From Flectonema sp. DT1601 (Eukaryota): DNA of 64,000 nucleotides. This document shows, one piece after another, positions 15,482 to 64,000 of this stretch (position 1 is its first letter; every line of letters starts with the position of its first letter). A program made the position numbers and the translations under genes. The notes beneath the pieces were generated by a model that was not told the DNA's origin, did no database searches, and saw only the letters and a program-made list of their open reading frames with translations. The DNA lies in assembly GCA_964019425.1 (NCBI GenBank), contig OZ025783.1:1674001-1738000 (forward strand), in the 5' to 3' direction.

Positions 15482-15624
15482 GCGTAGTCCCAGTGACAAT
15501 TTGACCTTTCTCTGGTAGTTTATTTAAAGCATGCGATTTTTGTGTGGACGGAATCCAGTTATAATGATTCATGTCTAATTTGTTGCGTGTTAACCCCCCT
15601 TGATTTATTTATCCAAGTCCCCCC
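15482..15624 (+). repeat. Dispersed repeat family B, copy 1
   Basis: CTTTCTCTGGTAGTTTATTTAAAGCATGCGATTTT...GAATCCAGTTATAATGATTCATGTCTAATTTGTTGCGTGTTAACCC...TTGATTTATTTATCCAAGTCCCC, near-identical to 53776-53928. Confidence 0.92.
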
Positions 15625-45776: not shown

Positions 45777-47460
45777 ATGTATCACGGCTCAATTGCCGAG
45801 ACTCTCGGGACGAGTCTGCCGAGCATCATGCCGGGAGGAGTCAGCGACGATTTGGAAATTCCAAACACAACGAAAAGTAGCAACTTGGATGCGTTACTTT
45901 CGAAAGCGCAGTTAAGTACTTCTGCACAACGGGGTTCTCAGCAAGTGCCGCAAAGTTTTTGTTTACAGCAGCCAACAAATATCCTGCCAGCCGCTCCAAT
46001 GGCGCCGATCCAGCAGATCGCTTCTCCGATGCAATTGAACGCACCTCCAGCTGCGGTCACACAATTATTGCAACCTATTCATCAGGTACAGCAACCTATT
46101 CATCAGGTACAGCAACCTATTCATCAGGTACAGCAACCTATTCATCAGATACAGCAACCTATTCATCAGGTGCAGCAACCGGCAGCTATGCCGCAAGCCT
46201 CCGTTCCGCAGGCGTCTTTCGTACCTGTTCAGCCTTCTGCTGTTTCGGATGTTGCACTTGAGGCGCAAATGCTGCAGCACCAATTAGCCCGTCAAACTGG
46301 TGATATGCAGAATTTTCTGAAGTCGGAATTAAACAAACTATCAGCTGCCATGCGTTCCATCTCACTCTCTCCGCCAAGGATGGGATCAGTTGCACAACCG
46401 ACGACTGGACTATTGGCACAGAACTCGCAGCCTTACGCAGTTCCACCTCACGTGTTGTCTCAAGAGTTGCAATTACAGGATCTCACTTCTGTGACAGCAA
46501 TACAACCGTCTGCAGTGTCAATGAGAGCTCAGCATGTGAGTCAGCCTGTTTTGAGTCAGCCGGTGGCTTACGCGACCCCAGTGAGAGTCGTAACATCTGA
46601 AATGGTGACAGAGGCCCAGAAGCGGGTTGCAAGTCCTGTCTGGGACTCAGAATTTGTAAACAACTCAGACGATAATCAAACGAGAGGACTGACTGCCCCT
46701 ATGCTGGCAAGATTCGCTGAGAATTTCAGTGAAGCGACTACTTCCATGCCAACCATCAGAGGACTGAATGATTCAGTTGCCGATCAGAATATCGAACTCA
46801 TTAACCCGCCTTCTGAGTCTACTCACGTAGTAGATCCTGAGGTGGTGAGAGAACATTATTTTAAATTGAAGAGGTCGCTTAGTCATGTTGAAGAAGCCCC
46901 AAGTGCTATGCAGCACGCCAACAATCTCGGGGCTTTGAGTTTCGAAACCCTAATTGACGTCCTTCACGAGCAATATCCAACTTTAGAGAGAAAAGAAGTG
47001 GCGCTGACGTGGAGATCACTGGTCACTGCTTATCAACAGGCTGGGGCTAACTTTGCAGCAAGACCTGCCGGAAAGCCTTCAAACCCAAAGCACTACGAGT
47101 TGGACGAGTCTCCACCTCCAACTCCAAAGAGTAGTGCGAAGTCTAACTTGTCGGAAGAGTACACCACCAACAACTATGAGACTACTCTCAAAGAAGTGAT
47201 GAGTTTTATCGACAAACGTATGTATTTTATGTTAAAGAACTCTTGTGAGTATCAAAGTATCGAATTACAAGTTTTCTAATAAATAAATTAAAATTAGCAA
47301 CACAGCGCTGAGTCCGAAGTCAATCCAGCGTATTACGAGAGTTCGCCGTAAGACAGACGTAACTGCTGGAGAGCAGACTATCCCAGCGAATGCCACGGCA
47401 GCGTATCCCATTCCGTTTCAAGAAACCCAACTGCCAGTTGTACCGCAGGGATATTACTAA
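45777..47460 (+). CDS. Gln/Pro-rich hypothetical protein; intron 47218-47305
   Basis: 500-aa ORF plus a GTATGT...CACAG intron giving a 51-codon last exon ending TAA at 47458-47460. Confidence 0.7.
46071..46180 (+). repeat. Coding minisatellite, 5 x 21 bp (CAACCTATTCATCAGGTACAG), encoding QPIHQVQ
   Basis: Directly visible; units differ at only 1 position in copies 4 and 5. Confidence 0.95.
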
Positions 47461-53775: not shown

Positions 53776-53928
53776 GCGTGGTCCCGGGTCAATTTGACTT
53801 GACAGCATTTCTTTCTCTGGTAGTTTATTTAAAGCATGCGATTTTGTGGACAGAATCCAGTTATAATGATTCATGTCTAATTTGTTGCGTGTTAACCCTT
53901 GATTTATTTATCCAAGTCCCCCCCCCCC
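53776..53928 (+). repeat. Dispersed repeat family B, copy 2 (partial third copy of its 3' end at 53673-53691)
   Basis: Near-identical to 15482-15624, 38 kb away, same orientation. Confidence 0.92.
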
Positions 53929-54090
53929 GTACATATTTTTGGTAACATTAAAGGGGTCTGTCAGCCTCAGGTTTTCTGATTTTGACTGGCATTGCAGCAC
54001 GTAATTTTTTCAAACCCTGCACTACTCCAATCACGGCTCAAACTATTTTGACCCATTTTTCAATTTTATTTTTTTTGAAGCCAGAACGGG

Positions 54091-54585
54091 AGCAGTTAAG
54101 ACCTAACTGACTGTCTGAGCTGTTACCCAAGTTTTGTGAGGAATGCCTTGAGGCGCAAATCATCAGCTTGCACTGCTTACGCCTGCCATTTGTACACTGC
54201 CCGTTGTGCCGATTGGCTGAAAAACTTTCGGTAAGCCCCCTTTGACAGGAATGTCTTCATTAATACTTGATTAGGGGTGAACGTCAGTGTTTAGAGTTTT
54301 TGTTTTCTTTTCGTGGTATGGCTGCATTAGACACATGTGTCTATTTTAAGAAAGGCTTTATATCAGTCATTTTATATGAATATTTTATTTATTACTCCAA
54401 TCTCCAATGATGCACCCGTGATCATTTCTTTCTTTTGTTTTCAACCTGTTAGTCTCTGGGAAGGTTGACAGCTGGGTATTGATCCAGTCAAAGCTACAAT
54501 AACACAATCTCTGCGATTGGGTCCTCCACTGCGGTTACCCAGACCCCTCGCAGTCCTGGACTTGCTAACTAACTAACCGACTAAG
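54091..54585 (+). repeat. Dispersed repeat family A, copy 2 (longer, ends in an (ACTA)n-like tail)
   Basis: AGCAGTTAAGAC...AACTGACTGTCT, GGTAAGCCC, GCTGGG.ATTGATCC and ACACAATCTC.GCGATTGGGT blocks are collinear with 56391-56815; tail GCTAACTAACTAACCGACTAA. Confidence 0.7.
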
Positions 54586-56390
54586 AAATTAAATAAATTG
54601 CGTAAGAAACCCTTATGTTGAGACCAGTCAAATTGCCGGACCAGACAGTTGGTACGGAAGATTTGCTTGAGCTGGCTCGCTCACCCTCATTTTCTTTTTG
54701 GTTTGGGTGTCGAGTGTTTCCTTGGTGCTACTGAATAGTTGCATCCCTTTCCTTTCGCTTTTGCTTTCTTCGACTTGACCTAAACCCTCATACGCTACAT
54801 GTAGCCAAGCTGCGTACTATTGAGGATCCAGTTTCCGTTATCAGCAATACGGAATTAGTCGTGAGCTTCTGCGTCATATTCGTTAATTAATCCTCTGCGG
54901 AGCCATTCTTGATAGATGGTAAACACCAATAAAAAGAGAGGGCCTCTGAAGTGCTTTGTGCGGTGATCATGTTGCTCACAAATAACTAGTGAGGCCTTCT
55001 TAGTTTTACAACGTAGCTTTTTAATCTAAGAGAGCCAAAACATTCAATTAATTACTGACAACATCGCAAAATATATATACGACGGTTCTAACCAAAGCAA
55101 TCAAAACATGATCTACATCCTTTTGTTGACGTTATTACTTTCGAGAACTCTAATATAAATCATCACGCACTCTTCAGCATTTTTTTGTGATCGATTTCGT
55201 ACTACTAAAATATCAATTCTACATTTCAATTCTACATTTATTTTTCGTTAGACTGACGCTGTGATTCTGTCAATCTCAATATTCCTGAAGACGGAGCAAA
55301 GAGAATTTCAGATCTGTGTCGAGCCGTGCGGCTATTTTTTTAAGGCCGCTTCGTAATATTTCCAATCGACAATTAGATTTCAAAACTGTTCAAATCTTTC
55401 TATCACAGTAGCGAATTGTTTACAGGCCATGTTCTATTACCCAACGAATGTCAACCATAAATACAATATCAACAATAGCAAGAACTTGACGTTTTCAGCG
55501 CGGAAGCTGAGTCGCTGTCGGTGTCGCGAGGCAATCATGAAATTAATGTTCAGGAAAAGTAAAATGCAACAAAAAGCAATATGAAACAAAAGCTCGTCAC
55601 ATTACCACTCACTGCGACTTATATTCGACACTCTCCCCTGGTAAGTGACTGCTTTGTTTACTTTTTATAGTTTTGTTATTTTTCACACCTGTCTTACTGA
55701 TTCTCATACCCTTCCAATATTCAACTACTACTCTTGCTGAAAACTTTAATTGTTCACCGTAACTCGTCTCTAACAACGATTCGGAGAACAATCGTAACGG
55801 ATTCATTTGCAAGAACACGGAAAACTTTTTCCTGCACGTCTGCAAAGTTGTGCAAATAACTACGAGTCGAATTCTTATCTGAACATGTTGTTTTGCCGCG
55901 AAGAGTGGTCTGGATCGAGTAGGTTGAGAATGTTTGCTGCGATCATTTATGAATCCTTTGTGAACATCGGGATCGAATATCCCACCGTGCTAACAATGCG
56001 CTATCAGTGCATTCCGTTGCAAAAACTCAAACTATTTGTCGTTCGTAGATCACTCGCCACGAATATAATAATATGTAGGTTGGATTAGTTCTTTGTATGT
56101 TTCTTTATTAATTCCCTTTCCTATTACTTATATTTTATTCTACACATATTGTCTTTCTTTCTCAATCCTTCACTCGATGGTTCGCGCTTAGAGCAAGATA
56201 ATAACGATAAGTAGTCTCCGGACCACTACCGTGACTATTCTTGATTCATGTGTTGGGGGCAGTTATTGGGGTGAGTTCCGTGCATGTCAAAAGTACATAG
56301 TAAAATATTATTTATTTTAGTGCATTTCTCGGAACAACGTCAATAAGGTTCCTAAGCGAATTTTATCGTCCGATCAAAAATACAGTCTGA

Positions 56391-56815
56391 AGCAGTTAAG
56401 ACTTAAAACTGACTGTCTCTCCCTACAGATTGGAATAGTTATTCGTGTTGCCAAAACCTTATGGTATATCTTTTAAAGCCTTTGGTAAGCCTTACACTAT
56501 TGGCAACGACCGTTGTGTCCCGATTTTTTTTATTTTGGGCGGCATTTGGCACACGTGACTATTGCATGAAGGAGGTGGAATGGAAAAGATATTTTATTTA
56601 TTACCCTACGATCATTTTGATTTTGATTTTTGTATATCGCAAGGTTTTTACTGTTTTTACATTGTCAAAGCTTTCCCTTCATCATTTCTTTTTTTTTTCT
56701 TCTACTTGTGTTTCTGCTGGGAATTGATCCTCTCAGCTGAACCTATAAAAACACAATCTCGCGATTGGGTTCTCTACTGGTGCGGGCTATGCCCGCAGTC
56801 ATCAGTTCTGGACTT
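56391..56815 (+). repeat. Dispersed repeat family A, copy 3
   Basis: Collinear blocks shared with 54091-54562 and 10750-10845. Confidence 0.7.
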
Positions 56816-58360
56816 AGAGCCAGATGATCTGCGATTCCGTCTTTCTTCCTTTTGTAATTTATTGGAGGAAGAAGAATAATTACATTGCTCTTCTGAAGTC
56901 CGTATCTTTTACTAACTTACGACAATATTAACGTTCGTGCGTTCACTTTGCTAATCCCACAGAGTTCTTTTCATTGCTCTGAGGGAAACCTTCACAATAA
57001 ATGAATTCTTTCCAAATTAACCCGAAAAAAGAAAACCGAGTTAATTATCTCAAACAATAAATATCAATATCAAGTACTAACATAGTAGCAACAACGCAAA
57101 AAGAAGTTACATCTCGTAACTCCCTGTCCCTTCAATTCAAACTGCAAGGAAGCCCACGCAATTATCAGTTGCTTCCATTCAGAGATTCTTGTGCGTTTTG
57201 TGGAACCAAGGATTAAGAAAGCTTTTCTTTGCCCTACACTGTCTTAATCCTATCTGCATTCTGGAATGCATCTCGAAATGGAAGCTTTTGAAGTGCTAAT
57301 GCTGTTTGCGCCGTTTGAATCTGAAAACCTGTACACAAGGTGGGATTGATAAAAATCTCGTGGCAAAACAAGTTTCTTTATAATACACTTGGCTGCTGAT
57401 CACTATCTAACCTTAGACATGTTGACAATCTTTAATACTGCATTATCCCCTCTTCATTTTCCTAAAACACCTGCTTACTTGTAGAAAAGTTAGCTGTCAT
57501 TCGGGCTGCTCTCTTGTAAAAACACGAGGAAGCATTATTTCCGTTATAATTTCTTTTGGACAAGGTTCCTATTATTTGTTAGTATCCTGAATTATTGTGA
57601 GTAAGTTGCCTGTACCACTCTCCACTCTTGCTCCAAGCAAGGTGAGGCAGCAGTTTAGTCACGTAAAGACAATCCCGAGTTAACTTATCTAACAACCTGA
57701 CCAACTACTTCTTTCTGCAATTTGCTATTCTTTATTCTTTTCGGGTCATACTTGCATAGATTCGATTTGAGCTATTTAAAATACAAACTCTTTCCTGTCT
57801 AGAGCATACGCTTGCTCGATACGCGATCTTCAGTACCGATCCACGGTGCGAAAGCATGGCCTAACGATCCTTTGGTCTCGCTTCGTATTAAAGAATAGTT
57901 GATCGGTGCGGAGAAGGGTTGGCGAGGTGTTGTTTTGTTTGACGGTCGATTTCTTGTCTGAATTCGTTTCTCGATATTTCATAAGATCACGCCTTTTTTT
58001 CATGTGTTTAAAAAAAATAAAAAAATAAAATTAAACTTTTCTCTCGATATTTCATAAGAAGAATATTCCGTTGTTGTTTTATGGCGACCTTTTTTTTCAC
58101 TCGCCTGTGCGACGGTTAAATTCAAAGTCTTGCTTTCCCAAGGAATCTATTTTTTATTTATTCCTAATGAATGAATCCTTTTGTTTGAGAATGGTATAGT
58201 GCTGAAACTGTGGAGTTATGTGTAGTTGTAAAGGGAATCGAAGCAAGTATTCAAAACATGCTTCCTGTATCCATAGCACCTTACCTTCAGAAAAACAACT
58301 ACATTTGTACAAATAGTCCTCTAAACTCCGTTCGAGTAACTCTTGCTTACGAACAAACTA

Positions 58361-58412
58361 ACTAGCTCCCTGTGTGGAATATAAATGCTCATCATGGAGC
58401 CTTTGAAACCGC
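58361..58412 (+). repeat. 52-bp perfect direct repeat, copy 1
   Basis: ACTAGCTCCCTGTGTGGAATATAAATGCTCATCATGGAGCCTTTGAAACCGC, identical to 61059-61110. Confidence 0.97.
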
Positions 58413-60797
58413 TACTCTACTTGCAATTGCAGTACTCAAGAACTGAATAGTTTAAAATACAACGGCCATTCTTGCGGACTCGCTATTGATTTACCAGTCT
58501 CAGAAGAACTAAGAGACTTCTTCGCACGAGGTCAAAAATTTAGAGTCCCAGTGCACCCATCAGCTGCATTAGAATCACTTGAAAATGATATTACTGAATA
58601 TATAACTCACGCATACAAGAACGTTGGCGATAACTTTAAATCGATCTTTAAAAACACAATTCTTAAACAATTGCAGCTTAAATTAAGTAAAGACTTAAGC
58701 TTTCTTGACTCACCATTATCAAATAAAGCATGGACTGAACTTCAGAATCTTCAATCTCAGTTTGTGTTTCTTAAAGTTGACAAAGGACAGCACGATATTG
58801 GTTACATGTGTAAAATAAATTATTTGCTTTTACTTCGAGAGCAGCTACAAAGTGATTCTTATGAACGCATCACATCAGACGAACCAACTCTACTAGCCAA
58901 CCTCAAGAACATGAACATTTCAATCAATGCCCGCCACTCTGATCGACTCCCACACCTATATGGAATGATTAAATTACACAAATCAGCTATCGGGATGAGA
59001 TGGATTACTGGTGTCTCATCCTTCACGGGTACAGCAGAACAACGACAATACGATAAGGATCATAATCTTGCACCTGCAACAGCAACAACATATGCGCACC
59101 AACATCTCTCTAGTATCCTTAAAAATGCGATGACTATATTGAAAGAGAAAGATATGCATTCACGGTTCAAACGATACTGGATTGTGGAATCAGATGATGA
59201 AGTCTCTAGTTCGATTAAACAGAATTTGATGGTTTTGAAAAAATTATCCCCTAAGACTTTTGATTTTACAACAATGTACACCCGCCTACCACACAACGCT
59301 ATTAAAACTAAAGTAAGTGAAGCACTGCAAGAAGCCTTTAGTTTCAAAAATATCTTACGTCTTGAATCGAGTGACCCTACACGATTCCCTTCTCTTGCGC
59401 TTGCAGAATGTCAAAAATTACTTGAATTCTGTATTGACTCCTCCTTTATTGCATTAAGAGGTTATATTTGGAGACAAACAATAGGCATTCCAATGGGTGG
59501 CAACGCCAGTAGCGATATAGCAAATCTCTACTGCTATAGAGTTGAATCCGCATATATCGATTCTTTAATTGAAGCAAAAAATCTAGACTTAGCTCGGCAA
59601 CATGACCACTCGTGTAGATACATCGACGACTTCCTCACCTGGAGTTGCGACCCTCCACCAGCAAGTCTATACTCAATGGATTACACTGATACTTCGAATA
59701 ATATTGATGATGTCTCTTATATAGGAATTCGTATCCGAATAGAGATCACTAACACAAATAAACGATGGATTCGTTTAAGTGTTAATGACAAAGCCAGGGG
59801 TTGGCATATTACGCCAACAAGGTTTACTCATCAGCATTCCGCAGCTCAAGAATCAATGGGTTCAGGTATCTTTACCACCATGATCTTACGAGCTCTAAAA
59901 ATCTGCAACAACCAGGCAGACTTTTTACAGGAACTTGAAGCGGTAACTTATAGATTACTCAACCGGGGCTATAAATCTGACAATATCAGAGCAGCATGCC
60001 TCCGCTTCATTAGCTCTCACATTGATGATGGTAATACAGCAGCTGCAATGCGTCGACGTATCAACCTTACTTTTGAGAAGTTTAGTCACAAAGTCCCATT
60101 AAGCATCGAAAAGGATACAATTAACCACACAGGCTCTACAAGCCATTCCTTGGATAAACGATTTCCACCATCCCTACATCAAACATCAGGAGAAGGTCTT
60201 CTCGGTGGAGAATGCGGATGGGCAGCGCTCAACTTCATTGCAGATCATTTATATATCGATAGAATTAACTTCAGTTTTCTGCAAAACTACCAACAGCGAT
60301 TTTATGAAGAATCTCTTAAAGTAGAACCGAACAACTCAGAGCATAAACCATCACCAGATGGTTGGTTCTCGCTACAAGTACTTAACATGGCTTGCATGAC
60401 TAAATTCAACAGAAGAATCGAGTACTTCGTTAACCCAGCAGATTTCGATTATCCTGAAGCAGCCGCAGCACTTATTCTACATAAAGCGAAAACAAGGATG
60501 ACTCACTTTATTGTTGCGCTAGTCTCATTTGAGTCCATGATCATCCGAGACATTCTTAAAGGCACAAAAGATTTAAGACTCCCTTTCGATCATTTTGACA
60601 AGATGTACCGAACTACAGAGTATAGTTTCCATATGATACCATTAAAAGCTCAGACTGATATGGATGTTACGATGACACCAGCGAATATAGGACCTTTGAT
60701 GATATGCGAAGATAAAGTAAAACGCAAATTGGATGACGACTCATCCATTAACTCGACTGTAATAGTGAAACGATCAGACGTCAAAAATTCAAATTGA
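58407..60797 (+). CDS. PLE reverse transcriptase fused to a C-terminal Josephin-like cysteine protease; open frame starts at 58407 with no ATG until 58806
   Basis: RT motifs VDKG, LPHLYGMIKLHK...MRWI, TFDFTTMYTRLPH (Asp at 59262), QTIGIPMGGNASSDIANLY, RYIDD (59616-59630), SYIGI, and thumb ending LLNRGY. Protease-like region 60171-60641. Confidence 0.88.
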   Translation, partial: NRYSTCNCSTQELNSLKYNGHSCGLAIDLPVSEELRDFFARGQKFRVPVHPSAALESLENDITEYITHAYKNVGDNFKSIFKNTILKQLQLKLSKDLSFLDSPLSNKAWTELQNLQSQFVFLKVDKGQHDIGYMCKINYLLLLREQLQSDSYERITSDEPTLLANLKNMNISINARHSDRLPHLYGMIKLHKSAIGMRWITGVSSFTGTAEQRQYDKDHNLAPATATTYAHQHLSSILKNAMTILKEKDMHSRFKRYWIVESDDEVSSSIKQNLMVLKKLSPKTFDFTTMYTRLPHNAIKTKVSEALQEAFSFKNILRLESSDPTRFPSLALAECQKLLEFCIDSSFIALRGYIWRQTIGIPMGGNASSDIANLYCYRVESAYIDSLIEAKNLDLARQHDHSCRYIDDFLTWSCDPPPASLYSMDYTDTSNNIDDVSYIGIRIRIEITNTNKRWIRLSVNDKARGWHITPTRFTHQHSAAQESMGSGIFTTMILRALKICNNQADFLQELEAVTYRLLNRGYKSDNIRAACLRFISSHIDDGNTAAAMRRRINLTFEKFSHKVPLSIEKDTINHTGSTSHSLDKRFPPSLHQTSGEGLLGGECGWAALNFIADHLYIDRINFSFLQNYQQRFYEESLKVEPNNSEHKPSPDGWFSLQVLNMACMTKFNRRIEYFVNPADFDYPEAAAALILHKAKTRMTHFIVALVSFESMIIRDILKGTKDLRLPFDHFDKMYRTTEYSFHMIPLKAQTDMDVTMTPANIGPLMICEDKVKRKLDDDSSINSTVIVKRSDVKNSN

Positions 60798-60876
60798 GCA
60801 AAAGCAAATAAACATTGCTAGCCCTATCCTGGCGAGCTCCGATGGATTTTTATCTTTGAACGATAGCAACTTCAAC

Positions 60877-60963
60877 ATAGAATGAAGTCCCTTAGAACTT
60901 ACTGATGAAGGCCTAAAAAGGGACAAGTAGTATAAGATTAAGGCCTGAAACTACATATTCTAT
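60877..60963 (+). ncRNA. Putative hammerhead ribozyme with rearranged (non-circularly permuted) strand order
   Basis: CUGAUGA 60902-60908; stem II AGGCCU 60909-60914/60941-60946; GAAA 60947-60950; stem III CUAC 60951-60954/GUAG 60927-60930; UA at 60931-60932; stem I CUUA 60898-60901/UAAG 60933-60936; extra helices 60887-60893/60918-60924 and 60877-60883/60957-60963. Confidence 0.7.
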
Positions 60964-61058
60964 TACCCTTTGATGTTAGGAAACTGCAGAAATGAATACT
61001 TTTCTTTTATTGATCTCTACTTTTCTTATTCTCACTTTTCTGTTCTAAAATTAATGAT

Positions 61059-61110
61059 ACTAGCTCCCTGTGTGGAATATAAATGCTCATCATGGAGCCT
61101 TTGAAACCGC
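61059..61110 (+). repeat. 52-bp perfect direct repeat, copy 2
   Basis: Identical to 58361-58412. Confidence 0.97.
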
Positions 61111-61453: not shown

Positions 61454-61885
61454 ATGGGAAAGCCACGTGGTATTAACACAGCGAGAAAGCTGAAGACCAG
61501 AAGAAGAACCCAGAAGTGGGCTGACAAGGACTGGAAGAAGGCTCACTTGAGCGTTTCAATTAAGGCGAATGTATTCGGAGGATCTTCCCACGTTAAAGGA
61601 ATCGTTTTAGAGAAGATTGGTGTCGAAGCGAAGCAGCCGAATTCGGCCATCAGAAAGTGCGTTCGTGTTCAGCTAATTAAAAACGGAAAGAAAATCCTCG
61701 CGTTCGTTCCAAACGATGGTTGCCTTCACTTTGTTGAGGAAAACGACGAAGTTCTTGTTGCAGGTCTTGGGCGTTCTGGTCACGCTGTTGGAGACATTCC
61801 CGGAGTTCGTTTCAAGATCAGTAAAGTTTCGGGTGTAGGTCTATTTGCCCTGTACCGTGAGAAGAAGGAGAAGCCACGTTCTTAG
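61454..61885 (+). CDS. RPS23: 40S ribosomal protein S23 (uS12)
   Basis: [13 protein letters not shown]...[25 protein letters not shown]...GDIPGVRFK...KKEKPRS. ATG at 61454 after pyrimidine tract + CAG. Confidence 0.98.
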
Positions 61886-62631: not shown

Positions 62632-64000
62632 ATGCAGGTTTCTGTGACATGTCCGGATTTGGGATTCGCTGCAGTGTCAGTCACGGTTAGTGTTGATTCC
62701 CTTGTGAGCGAAGTCTTGACATCGGCGGCTGGGGAGTGGGATGTCGATACGGAGGAAGTTGAACTGTCGTTCGCTGGTGACACCCTTTGCGAAGGTGAGC
62801 GACTAGCAGATCGTGGAGTGGGTGGAGACAGCGAGTTGGAGATGTGGAAGAAGCGGTTTCGTATATTCAGTAAATGCTGGTTTGTTAATGATTCAAAACG
62901 GGAGAAGCTGCTTCGTTGGATAAGAGAACACAATGAGGAATACTTATACCTTGACACCACAACATTCACAGAGGATGGTTGCCTCGATATTGAGGATGAT
63001 TTGCTTCCTTCTGATGCCGAACGGGTTTCTTTCCGCAATTCAAATTCCGTCGCCTCAGCCATCTCACAAGTTGTCACTATTGGAGAATATTTCTTGTCTT
63101 CCTGTTCACAAATCACTTGGGATCACGACACCTGCCTCCTCGCGGCGGTCCCGGACGACTTCGATAGGGGTCGACAAGACGGTGTCAAACGCAAGGGATG
63201 CGAACAACATCAACACCAACCACCACATCAAGAGCATCCGAACACTGGATGTTTCTTATCCAACAAAGAAAGAAACAGGCTGGCCCATGCCTTGAATGGC
63301 AATGGTGGAACAAGGAAGGACAGCAGAGACCGACGCCCGCGGGACGACACTCGCGACAGGGACGAGGACCGCACGGACAAGGAAGAACGCCGGCTGGCGA
63401 AACTCGAGAAGGAAAAACTCGAGTCGCTAGACGAAATCGAGGAAGAGAAGCAGCGGCTGGGGCAACAGAGAATGGCCATGGAGCAGCACCACCACCAGAA
63501 GGAAACCAACCTTCAAGGACAAGAAAAACAGTTGGAACAGCAACGCCAACACCAACAACAAGAACTGCAAAGTCAGTACCACCAACAACAGCAGCAACTG
63601 CAAAGCCACCATCAGCTGAAGGAAACGGAAAGTCTCCAGAAGGAGCAAAACCTACAGGCTCAACTCAAAGAGCAACATCAGCACCAACAGAAGGATTTGG
63701 AGAAGCAATACCGCCAACGACAACAGCAACTGGAAAGCCAGCAGCAGAAGAAGGACGCCGAGTCCGAACAGCAAGCACATTTGACTCGGTCACAACTACA
63801 GAAGGAAAAGGAATCCTTCCAGACGGAGAAGGAACGGCTCCACCTCCAGCTGGATCAGCAGCTAAGGAATGAGAAGGACCACCTCCACCGAAAGCTCAAG
63901 GAGCAGATTGGACAAGAAAAAGTCCAACAACAACAAAAGCTCCAACAGAAGGAAGACGAGATCCAACGGCGTGAGGAAGAGGTGAACCGAGGACAGCAGC
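62632..64000 (+). CDS. Open frame running off the window: ubiquitin-like domain + start of BspA-type LRR (62632-63118) fused in frame to Gln/Glu-rich coiled coil (from ~63119)
   Basis: Hand translation from ATG 62632: MQVSVTCPDLG...VSEVLTSAAGEWDVDTEEVELSFAGDTLCEGERLADRGVGGDSELEMWKK...VVTIGEYFLSSCSQIT, then ...KEERRLAKLEKEKLES...QQRQHQQQELQSQ..., no stop to 64000. Missing from the ORF track because it has no stop in the window. Confidence 0.75.
   Translation, partial: MQVSVTCPDLGFAAVSVTVSVDSLVSEVLTSAAGEWDVDTEEVELSFAGDTLCEGERLADRGVGGDSELEMWKKRFRIFSKCWFVNDSKREKLLRWIREHNEEYLYLDTTTFTEDGCLDIEDDLLPSDAERVSFRNSNSVASAISQVVTIGEYFLSSCSQITWDHDTCLLAAVPDDFDRGRQDGVKRKGCEQHQHQPPHQEHPNTGCFLSNKERNRLAHALNGNGGTRKDSRDRRPRDDTRDRDEDRTDKEERRLAKLEKEKLESLDEIEEEKQRLGQQRMAMEQHHHQKETNLQGQEKQLEQQRQHQQQELQSQYHQQQQQLQSHHQLKETESLQKEQNLQAQLKEQHQHQQKDLEKQYRQRQQQLESQQQKKDAESEQQAHLTRSQLQKEKESFQTEKERLHLQLDQQLRNEKDHLHRKLKEQIGQEKVQQQQKLQQKEDEIQRREEEVNRGQQ
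63119..63186 (+). ncRNA. Putative HDV-like self-cleaving ribozyme
   Basis: P1 GGGAUC 63119-63124/GGUCCC 63147-63152; P2 GACACC 63127-63132/GGUGUC 63181-63186; P3 GCC 63134-63136/GGC 63144-63146; L3 UCCUCGC; GG 63153-63154 for P1.1; P4 63156-63162/63167-63173; candidate catalytic C at 63175. Confidence 0.78.
63119..64000 (+). mobile_element. Probable 5' end of a non-LTR retrotransposon inserted in the UBL-LRR gene
   Basis: Abrupt change to GC-richer, T-poor sequence starting exactly at an HDV-like ribozyme, followed by coiled-coil coding sequence. RT/endonuclease are not within the window. Confidence 0.55.

What the first reader, a model, noticed from the sequence alone, without database searches (positions are those of the whole stretch)
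63119..63186. HDV-like ribozyme exactly at a compositional junction inside a host gene
Seen: a nested double pseudoknot with L3 UCCUCGC closed by P3 GCC/GGC (matching the hepatitis delta core), a GG for P1.1, a 7-bp P4 and a C in J4/2. Its first G (63119) coincides with the point where the LRR-like protein sequence stops making sense. Deviations: P1 has 6 clear pairs rather than 7, and J4/2 (ACAAGAC) is longer than usual. Established: HDV-like ribozymes define the 5' ends of R2, RTE, L1Tc/ingi and other non-LTR elements. Inference: a full-length, probably young retrotransposon starts here and can free its 5' end from host read-through RNA.
Basis: partly seen in the sequence, partly recalled or inferred. 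Interest (0 to 1): 0.8.

Follow-up and report, generated by a model that had tools for sequence, protein, structure and literature searches.

The report
Ribozyme-headed retroelement targeting leucine-rich repeats
An RNA fold predicted to cut itself marks the exact start of a young multi-copy insert, likely a jumping gene, that sits at the same letter of a leucine-rich repeat in three different protein genes (and likely a fourth), so it would be one of the few such elements aimed at protein-coding repeats.

Summary
Confirmed and extended. 63119-63186 forms the full HDV-like double pseudoknot. It is the only descriptor hit in the window (0 of 2,212 shuffles) and aligns weakly but end to end with Rfam's HDV model, C63175 on the catalytic C. 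G63119 is a true insertion boundary: BspA leucine-rich-repeat (LRR) paralogues match up to it, and a related run holds both the empty and the filled site. Three other copies start with the same ribozyme-coded 23 residues. Two sit at the same phase of the LRR unit in different BspA genes; the third does when its flank is read in another frame. The two comparable host genes are 70% identical and not a clade, while copies are 96-98% identical, so insertions are independent and recent. The reading frame runs unbroken from the host gene through the ribozyme into a ~980-aa ORF with no early AUG. A second, different insert ends 4 of 26 paralogues at the same phase. Best reading: a sequence-specific non-LTR retroelement with a 5' processing ribozyme. 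Reverse transcriptase, endonuclease, 3' end and cleavage were not seen; this copy is frameshifted beyond the window. Closest precedent: ingi/RIME in trypanosome RHS genes.

The parts
62632..63118 (+). 5' part of the host gene: BspA-type LRR family member (N-terminal domain plus first LRR unit, 162 codons and one base)
   Evidence: 26 paralogues with PF13306, 48-75% identical; alignment; tblastn of P0002 to 62632-63117
63100..63118 (+). Upstream half of the target site, coding S-C-S-Q-I-T and the first base of the next codon; the empty site continues as S-L-D-L-S
   Evidence: X1 contig matching 63075-63118 then running on as LRR sequence; same phase in P0031, P0036
63119..63186 (+). HDV-like ribozyme fold at the exact 5' end of the insert; predicted cleavage between U63118 and G63119; predicted catalytic C63175
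   Evidence: 23 of 23 encoded residues identical in 3 of 3 other copies
63119..64000 (+). 5' part of the element's ORF1-like frame, open through the ribozyme and in frame with the host gene; Gln-rich, likely coiled coil; runs past the window (977-995 aa in intact copies)
63472..63480 (+). First in-frame AUG codons of the element (63472, 63478), 118 codons after the junction; only the second Met is kept in all four copies

Best explanation
63119 is the first base of a young multi-copy insert, likely a non-LTR retrotransposon, that begins with an HDV-like fold predicted to cut it free from the host transcript and that likely recognises one fixed position in the ~75-bp leucine-rich repeat of the BspA gene family. 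Shown: the fold, the boundary, at least seven contigs with element protein, the shared LRR phase (three copies directly), the unrelatedness of the host paralogues, the open frame. Inferred steps: (1) the BspA gene is transcribed and read-through RNA enters the element; (2) the ribozyme cleaves at U63118/G63119, giving every copy the same 5' end, as shown for R2 and L1Tc; (3) the ORF, which lacks an AUG for 118 codons, is translated either cap-independently from the ribozyme-headed RNA (the route proposed for R2 and L1Tc) or from uncut RNA as a BspA-ORF1 fusion; (4) a downstream ORF with reverse transcriptase and a sequence-specific endonuclease, not seen here, copies the RNA into a new LRR unit by target-primed reverse transcription. 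A family of at least 27 genes with several repeats each offers many redundant targets, as rDNA does for R2.
For: Fold and chance test. Empty and filled site in run X1, boundary to the base. Four proteins show the 5' junction: P0001, P0031, P0036 read C-x-x-I-T then the ribozyme peptide, after 0, 3 and 7 counted LRR units; P0028's flank read in the -1 frame fits the LRR profile at offset 0 (2 of 3,000 shuffles as good), with the frame shifted at the junction. Host N-domains of P0001 and P0036 are 70% identical and are rejected as one clade (AU p 4.6e-9); P0036's host is 97% identical to the empty paralogue P0008; element ORFs are 98% (P0031/P0036) and 96% (P0001/P0031, first 340 aa) identical. 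Ribozyme segment is the most conserved part: 23/23 residues against 26-29/37 in the next stretch (Fisher p 0.002-0.015); in X1, 2 differences in 68 nt against 83 in 812 overall (p 0.025). No protein starting at the element's own first Met, as an intact copy in non-coding DNA would give, among the 2 hits or the 6 cluster members. P1 of 6 bp and P2 mismatches are within the R2 range (PMC3774820 section 16).
Against: No reverse transcriptase, endonuclease, 3' tail or target duplication was seen; the DNA beyond 64000 was out of reach. The ORF has no Pfam or PDB match. Copies were found through predicted proteins, which favours in-frame insertions into genes; the flanks of P0032, P0034 and P0035 are unknown. 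J4/2 is atypical: two extra bases, and G63178 where the HDV model has A; the codon over it reads Asp in all four copies, so that G is the family's norm. No compensatory change was seen; X1's G63181A breaks or shifts the top pair of P2, and that contig has depth 2 only. The Rfam score is far under threshold. That the proteins come from one assembly is inferred from shared source and contig lengths.
Confidence: 0.65

Rival explanations
1. A dispersed ribozyme-headed LINE with only a loose target consensus; the LRR unit is one hot spot among many sites, as RHS genes are for ingi/RIME, and the protein-based search shows only the copies that landed in frame in a gene.
For: Ascertainment through proteins; 3 fragment copies have unknown flanks; precedent in PMC7563717 (passages).
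Against: 4 of 4 visible junctions are in the LRR at one phase, including one out of frame; the X1 relative has the same junction; no protein starting at the element's first Met was found.
Confidence: 0.17
2. A non-autonomous or ORF1-only element (or a mobile element of another class) that carries the ribozyme and this one ORF and is moved by an enzyme encoded elsewhere, possibly by the second insert seen at the same phase.
For: The 977-995-aa ORF ends without a Pfam RT or endonuclease hit and without a [YF]xDD motif by inspection; a second insert type uses the same phase in 4 of 26 paralogues.
Against: Two-ORF LINEs keep RT in ORF2, which a search with ORF1 cannot show. Atlas neighbours of the C-terminal half are DUF4780, PRE_C2HC, RRM_1 and zf-CCHC clusters, which I recall as typical of LINE ORF1 proteins, but at 0.76-0.85 they are leads only.
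Confidence: 0.13
3. A host fusion gene (BspA N-terminus plus a coiled-coil C-terminus) spread by recombination between LRR repeats after one old event; the fold is a relic or chance.
For: The frame is open across the junction in 3 of 4 copies; LRR arrays recombine readily (general knowledge).
Against: The LRR unit differs right up to the junction in each copy while the insert is 96-98% identical; hosts are not a clade; one junction is out of frame and several copies are broken; the fold starts exactly at the junction and is absent from shuffles.
Confidence: 0.05

Closest known systems
ingi/RIME and L1Tc/NARTc of trypanosomes, with the RHS hot spot (PMC7563717, PMC4035085, PMC5814959; passages)
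   Same: HDV-like ribozyme starting at base +1 of the element, releasing it from host co-transcripts; repeated insertion at one site in the coding region of a protein multigene family (RHS).
   Different: Target here is a tandem LRR unit present several times per gene; precise insertions keep the frame open, whereas RHS insertions are described as giving nonsense or frameshift; L1Tc has one ORF with AP endonuclease, RT and RNase H, while this element opens with a ~980-aa ORF lacking those matches.
R2 and R4/Dong site-specific elements (PMC3774820 sections 15-16 and passages; PMC12203849, PMC6765202 passages)
   Same: One fixed site in a redundant host repeat; predicted release by an HDV-like ribozyme at the precise junction; P1 of 6 bp; translation start proposed to depend on the ribozyme.
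   Different: Target is protein-coding, not rDNA; a long separate first ORF instead of a single ORF; endonuclease type unknown.
CRE clade: SLACS, CZAR, CRE1/2 (PMC12278014 passages)
   Same: Fixed-position insertion in a repeated gene of a protist whose window shows one-strand, uninterrupted ORFs.
   Different: CRE elements hit spliced-leader RNA genes and mostly have a single RT-RLE ORF; the passages read tie the ribozyme to ingi's Pr77, not to CRE.
Target-specific non-LTR elements in general (PMC4640811 passages)
   Same: Use of multicopy targets.
   Different: [quoted passage not shown]

Membership tests
HDV-like ribozymes (structural class) | Nested double pseudoknot with P1, P2, P3, P1.1, P4 | tested here: met
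   All five can form; P1 of 6-7 bp and P2 of at least 5 bp are the R2 norm
HDV-like ribozymes (structural class) | Conserved L3 and GG for P1.1 | tested here: met
   L3 UCCUCGC and GG align with the RF00094 consensus
HDV-like ribozymes (structural class) | Catalytic C in J4/2 followed by the conserved adenines | tested here: inconclusive
   C63175 aligns with the model's J4/2 C; the last A is G63178 (A in run X1) and two extra bases follow
HDV-like ribozymes (structural class) | Covariation supporting the helices | tested here: inconclusive
   Only one other DNA version seen; 2 changes, none compensatory
HDV-like ribozymes (structural class) | Self-cleavage 5' of G1 | not testable with these tools
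   Needs an assay; no RNA run was available
Rfam RF00094 (the viral family itself) | Gathering score of 50 bits | tested here: not met
   16.5 bits, E 1.4; not filed as a member of this Rfam family
Non-LTR retrotransposons | Multiple dispersed copies sharing one 5' end, empty sites exist | tested here: met
Non-LTR retrotransposons | Reverse transcriptase and endonuclease (APE or RLE) | not testable with these tools
Non-LTR retrotransposons | 3' tail and target-site duplication | not testable with these tools
Non-LTR retrotransposons | ORF1 with coiled coil and RRM-type RNA-binding domains | tested here: inconclusive
   Gln-rich N-half; Atlas leads to RRM-like clusters at 0.76-0.85; models of pLDDT 34.5 and 43.7 were uninformative
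Sequence-specific non-LTR elements (R2, R4, NeSL, CRE, Tx1, R1 types) | Independent insertions at one position of a repeated target | tested here: met
   4 of 4 visible junctions at one LRR phase (one by inferred frame); two comparable hosts not a clade; genome-wide share not measured
CRE clade | Insertion in spliced-leader RNA genes | tested here: not met
   Target is a BspA LRR coding repeat
Ingi/L1Tc clade | Single ORF with APE, RT and RNase H after the ribozyme | tested here: not met
   The ORF after the ribozyme ends at 977-995 aa with no such Pfam hit and no [YF]xDD motif; caveat: Pfam also missed the RT-like ORF at 58407-60797
Ingi/L1Tc clade | Pr77 sequence hallmark | not tested
   No Pr77 sequence was fetched for alignment

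The most novel reading that the evidence does not exclude
A strictly sequence-specific retrotransposon lineage has made a protein-coding leucine-rich repeat its home and is built to be read in the host's frame: the ribozyme doubles as coding sequence, uncut read-through mRNA lends the host's start codon to make BspA-ORF1 fusion protein, cut RNA becomes the insertion template, and a second element competes for the same phosphodiester position, so that the pair truncate and remodel a large LRR gene family.
Probability: 0.2. Interest if true: 0.85.

Novelty: new variant of a known kind. Interest (0 to 1): 0.63.

Why it matters
What raises it is the target. Site-specific non-LTR elements are listed as using RNA genes, transposons, microsatellites and telomeres (PMC4640811); the one protein-gene case I found is the RHS hot spot (PMC7563717). 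An element that finds one phase of a degenerate LRR coding unit would bring a new target specificity, of interest for R2-type genome insertion tools, and a source of truncation in an LRR family: 4 of 26 paralogues returned end in the second insert and three more genes are fused to this element. The open frame through the ribozyme also makes a long-standing question directly testable, namely how AUG-less, ribozyme-headed retroelement ORFs are translated.

Tried and rejected
No genome held for the window, so copy number, 3' end and ORF2 stayed open. Sequencing runs: no RNA holder listed; two runs with small shares, X2 matched only the CAG-like repeats. Exact 24-nt ribozyme pattern in metagenome contigs: 0. 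BspA alignment in metagenome contigs: 139 pattern matches, none confirmed. ORF1 C-half in viral contigs: 4 pattern matches, none confirmed. Pfam and PDB sequence searches of the ORF: nothing significant. Single-sequence structure models were poor (pLDDT 34.5 and 43.7) and fold searches gave nothing usable (no Foldseek hit at E 0.001, best Z 4.8). Atlas scores were all under 0.9. P0029 and P0030 are weak, unrelated hits and were dropped. A third X1 contig matching 36 nt at 63203-63238 was set aside as low-complexity. P0021 also changes character after an L-T near its end, but I did not count it as a junction. A 7-bp P1 starting at U63118 was considered and rejected because it leaves G-A for P1.1 and would put a host base in the element. 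The open frame as proof of design was rejected: the ribozyme's 24 codons are stop-free in 47% of shuffles, the stretch to 63330 in 5%, to the first Met in 1.7%, and in-frame copies are the ones a protein search finds. A match of the second insert's back-translated motif in the window was at chance level (35 of 100 shuffles). Earlier scan findings: none for this genome or sequence. Literature searches that found no report of an LRR- or BspA-targeting retrotransposon: (listings and abstract starts; open-licence library only). The original RHS paper is not held and is cited through PMC7563717.

Full report
1. The observation. The 68 bases at 63119-63186 are as described: P1 63119-63124 with 63147-63152 (6 bp), J1/2 AC, P2 63127-63132 with 63181-63186, a spare U63133, P3 GCC/GGC closing L3 UCCUCGC, GG at 63153-63154, a 7-bp P4 with two U-G pairs, and J4/2 ACAAGAC. 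A descriptor scan, written after I had seen the motif, found only this locus in the window and nothing in 2,212 whole-window, 52,698 local and 20,000 68-mer shuffles. Rfam gave no HDV hit in a 4-kb or whole-window scan. In a 101-nt scan its only hit among 4,227 families was RF00094 HDV_ribozyme, full model length, 16.5 bits against a threshold of 50, E 1.4, with C63175 on the J4/2 cytosine, G63178 on the last conserved A and two inserted bases. The nested fold is no more stable than shuffles (z 0.42); the two nested halves of the pseudoknot tie at -19.8 kcal/mol, and in context P2, P3 and P4 have pair probabilities of 0.90-0.98 (the program cannot form P1 at the same time). For R2 ribozymes P1 is typically 6 or 7 bp and P2 at least 5 bp with frequent mismatches (PMC3774820 section 16), so the 6-bp P1 is not a defect. 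The J4/2 oddity is real and unresolved.

2. The junction. 62632-63999 is one open frame, held in the database as the 588-aa P0001. Its first 200 residues found 26 paralogues, all with the BspA-type LRR family PF13306; 20 of 26 align over 162 residues, and P0002 matches the window from 62632 to 63117. Base composition shifts at the same place (T 29% before, 9% after the ribozyme). Run X1, a related organism or strain, holds both states: an 84-nt contig follows the window to 63118 and continues with LRR sequence (S-L-D-L-S), and a 1,070-nt contig carries the same junction and about 770 bases of the insert, with 83 differences over the 812 bases aligned. G63119 is therefore the first inserted base.

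3. Other copies. A search with the 140 residues after the junction found P0028; a search with the Gln-rich part found P0031, whose cluster holds P0032-P0036. That is 8 proteins on 7 contig lengths; P0033 shares the contig length of P0001 and is probably a later piece of the window's own copy. That they come from one assembly is inferred from the shared source and from contig lengths shared with BspA paralogues. Four proteins show the 5' junction. P0001, P0031 and P0036 read C-x-x-I-T and then the ribozyme-coded peptide, after 0, 3 and 7 counted LRR units. P0028 has a flank that looks unrelated, but read in the -1 frame it fits the LRR profile built from 147 repeats at offset 0 (2 of 3,000 shuffles as good), so it is likely the same site with the frame shifted at the junction. 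Four independent hits on one phase of a 75-bp unit have a chance of 2.4e-6, or about 6e-5 if only in-frame positions could be seen (my arithmetic). The insertions are independent: on a tree of 28 BspA N-domains the two element-bearing hosts with that domain (P0001, P0036; P0031 and P0028 lack it and were left out, as were three near-duplicates) are 70% identical and rejected as a clade (AU p 4.6e-9), and P0036's host is 97% identical to the empty P0008, whereas the element ORFs are 96-98% identical (one search was a first run that dropped rows through a pattern error). The ribozyme is the most conserved part: 23 of 23 encoded residues are identical in each of three other copies against 26-29 of the next 37, and X1 differs at 2 of 68 bases (p 0.025 at the overall rate). 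Those two changes are G63178A, which gives the canonical J4/2 adenine, and G63181A, which breaks or shifts the top pair of P2; neither is compensatory and the contig has depth 2.

4. A second insert at the same phase. Their hosts are not a clade either (at least three events). The W codon again implies host T plus GG. The sequence differs from this element's 5' end and I could not reach its DNA, so its nature is open.

5. The encoded protein. Intact copies give 977-995 residues from the junction: a Gln-rich, likely coiled-coil first half and a globular-looking second half. There is no Pfam or PDB match and no [YF]xDD motif. Atlas neighbours of the second half are DUF4780, PRE_C2HC, RRM_1, zf-CCHC and ZCCHC3 clusters at 0.76-0.85, in the noise range but of the kind I recall for LINE ORF1 proteins. 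Structure models failed. The window's copy leaves this frame at about residue 503 and P0033 ends early, so it is probably broken, by mutation or assembly error in the repeats. The first in-frame AUG lies 118 codons after the junction, although the stretch before it reads like protein. An open frame through the ribozyme alone is unremarkable (47% of shuffles); to the first Met it is 1.7%.

6. Host. 31 of 34 ORFs of 120 aa or more lie on one strand, uninterrupted, and the ribosomal protein at 61454 scores best, by 5 bits only, against chain 6zj3_SP, which I recall as Euglena. A euglenozoan-like protist with polycistronic transcription is a weak inference; if right, read-through transcription into the element is the default.

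7. Mechanism. Shown: fold, boundary, copies, shared phase, independence, open frame. Inferred: read-through transcription, self-cleavage at U63118/G63119 as in R2 and L1Tc (PMC3774820, PMC4035085, PMC5814959 passages), translation of the AUG-less ORF by a cap-independent route as proposed for those ribozymes (PMC12203849, PMC6765202 passages) or as a host fusion, and insertion by an unseen RT and sequence-specific endonuclease. I put 0.65 on this whole reading, 0.17 on a loosely targeted LINE seen through a biased lens, 0.13 on a non-autonomous or other element, 0.05 on a host fusion gene.

8. Comparison. It works like R2 (fixed site in a redundant repeat, 5' ribozyme) and most like ingi/RIME in RHS genes, a ribozyme-headed LINE with a hot spot in a protein family (PMC7563717 passages; the original paper is not held). 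It is not filed under ingi (different ORF layout) or CRE (different target; PMC12278014 passages), and membership of the non-LTR class awaits the RT. The target list in PMC4640811 (passages) has no host protein-coding repeat. Nine searches of the open-licence library found no report of an LRR-targeting element (a tenth, concerned translation). PMC10161547 (passages) names SLACS, LINE-1, R2-like, TATE and other elements in Diplonema without targets; its supplements were not read and may bear on novelty. PMC13565253 (passages) added nothing.

9. Verdict. Observation confirmed; interpretation right in outline but incomplete. New variant of a known kind, interest 0.63: the ribozyme is ordinary, the protein-repeat target, the open frame and the second insert at the same phase are not.

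Noticed in passing
window 58361-61110 (+): A 796-codon open frame (58407-60797) with RT-like motifs by eye (IPMGG, RYIDD), bounded by an identical 52-nt direct repeat (58361-58412, 61059-61110); looks like a Penelope-type element. Pfam and PDB gave no significant match. Its C-terminus resembles a Josephin-like cysteine protease by eye (recalled motif, unsupported by Pfam).
   Followed up: partly
window 60898-60955 (+): Hammerhead-like core: CUGAUGA at 60902, palindromic AGGCCU stem II, GAAA; strands that could form stems I and III with a GUA triplet lie inside the stem II loop, an unusual strand order (by eye). Not found by Rfam; nested fold z about -1. Related contigs exist in run X1.
   Followed up: partly
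   Followed up: partly
window 54050-54580 and 56320-56820 (+): Two diverged non-coding repeats with patchy similarity, best at their 3' ends, each with a GC-rich hairpin; the first is followed by CTAA repeats. Possibly old retroelement ends.
   Followed up: partly
window 15506-15624 and 53811-53923: A ~120-bp dispersed repeat, 96-100% identical in its three matched pieces.
   Followed up: no
window 46049-46201: Six tandem 21-nt units inside the ORF at 45777-47279.
   Followed up: no
whole window: 31 of 34 ORFs of 120 aa or more are on the + strand and uninterrupted, with long T-tracts between them, as in polycistronic protist genomes.
   Followed up: partly
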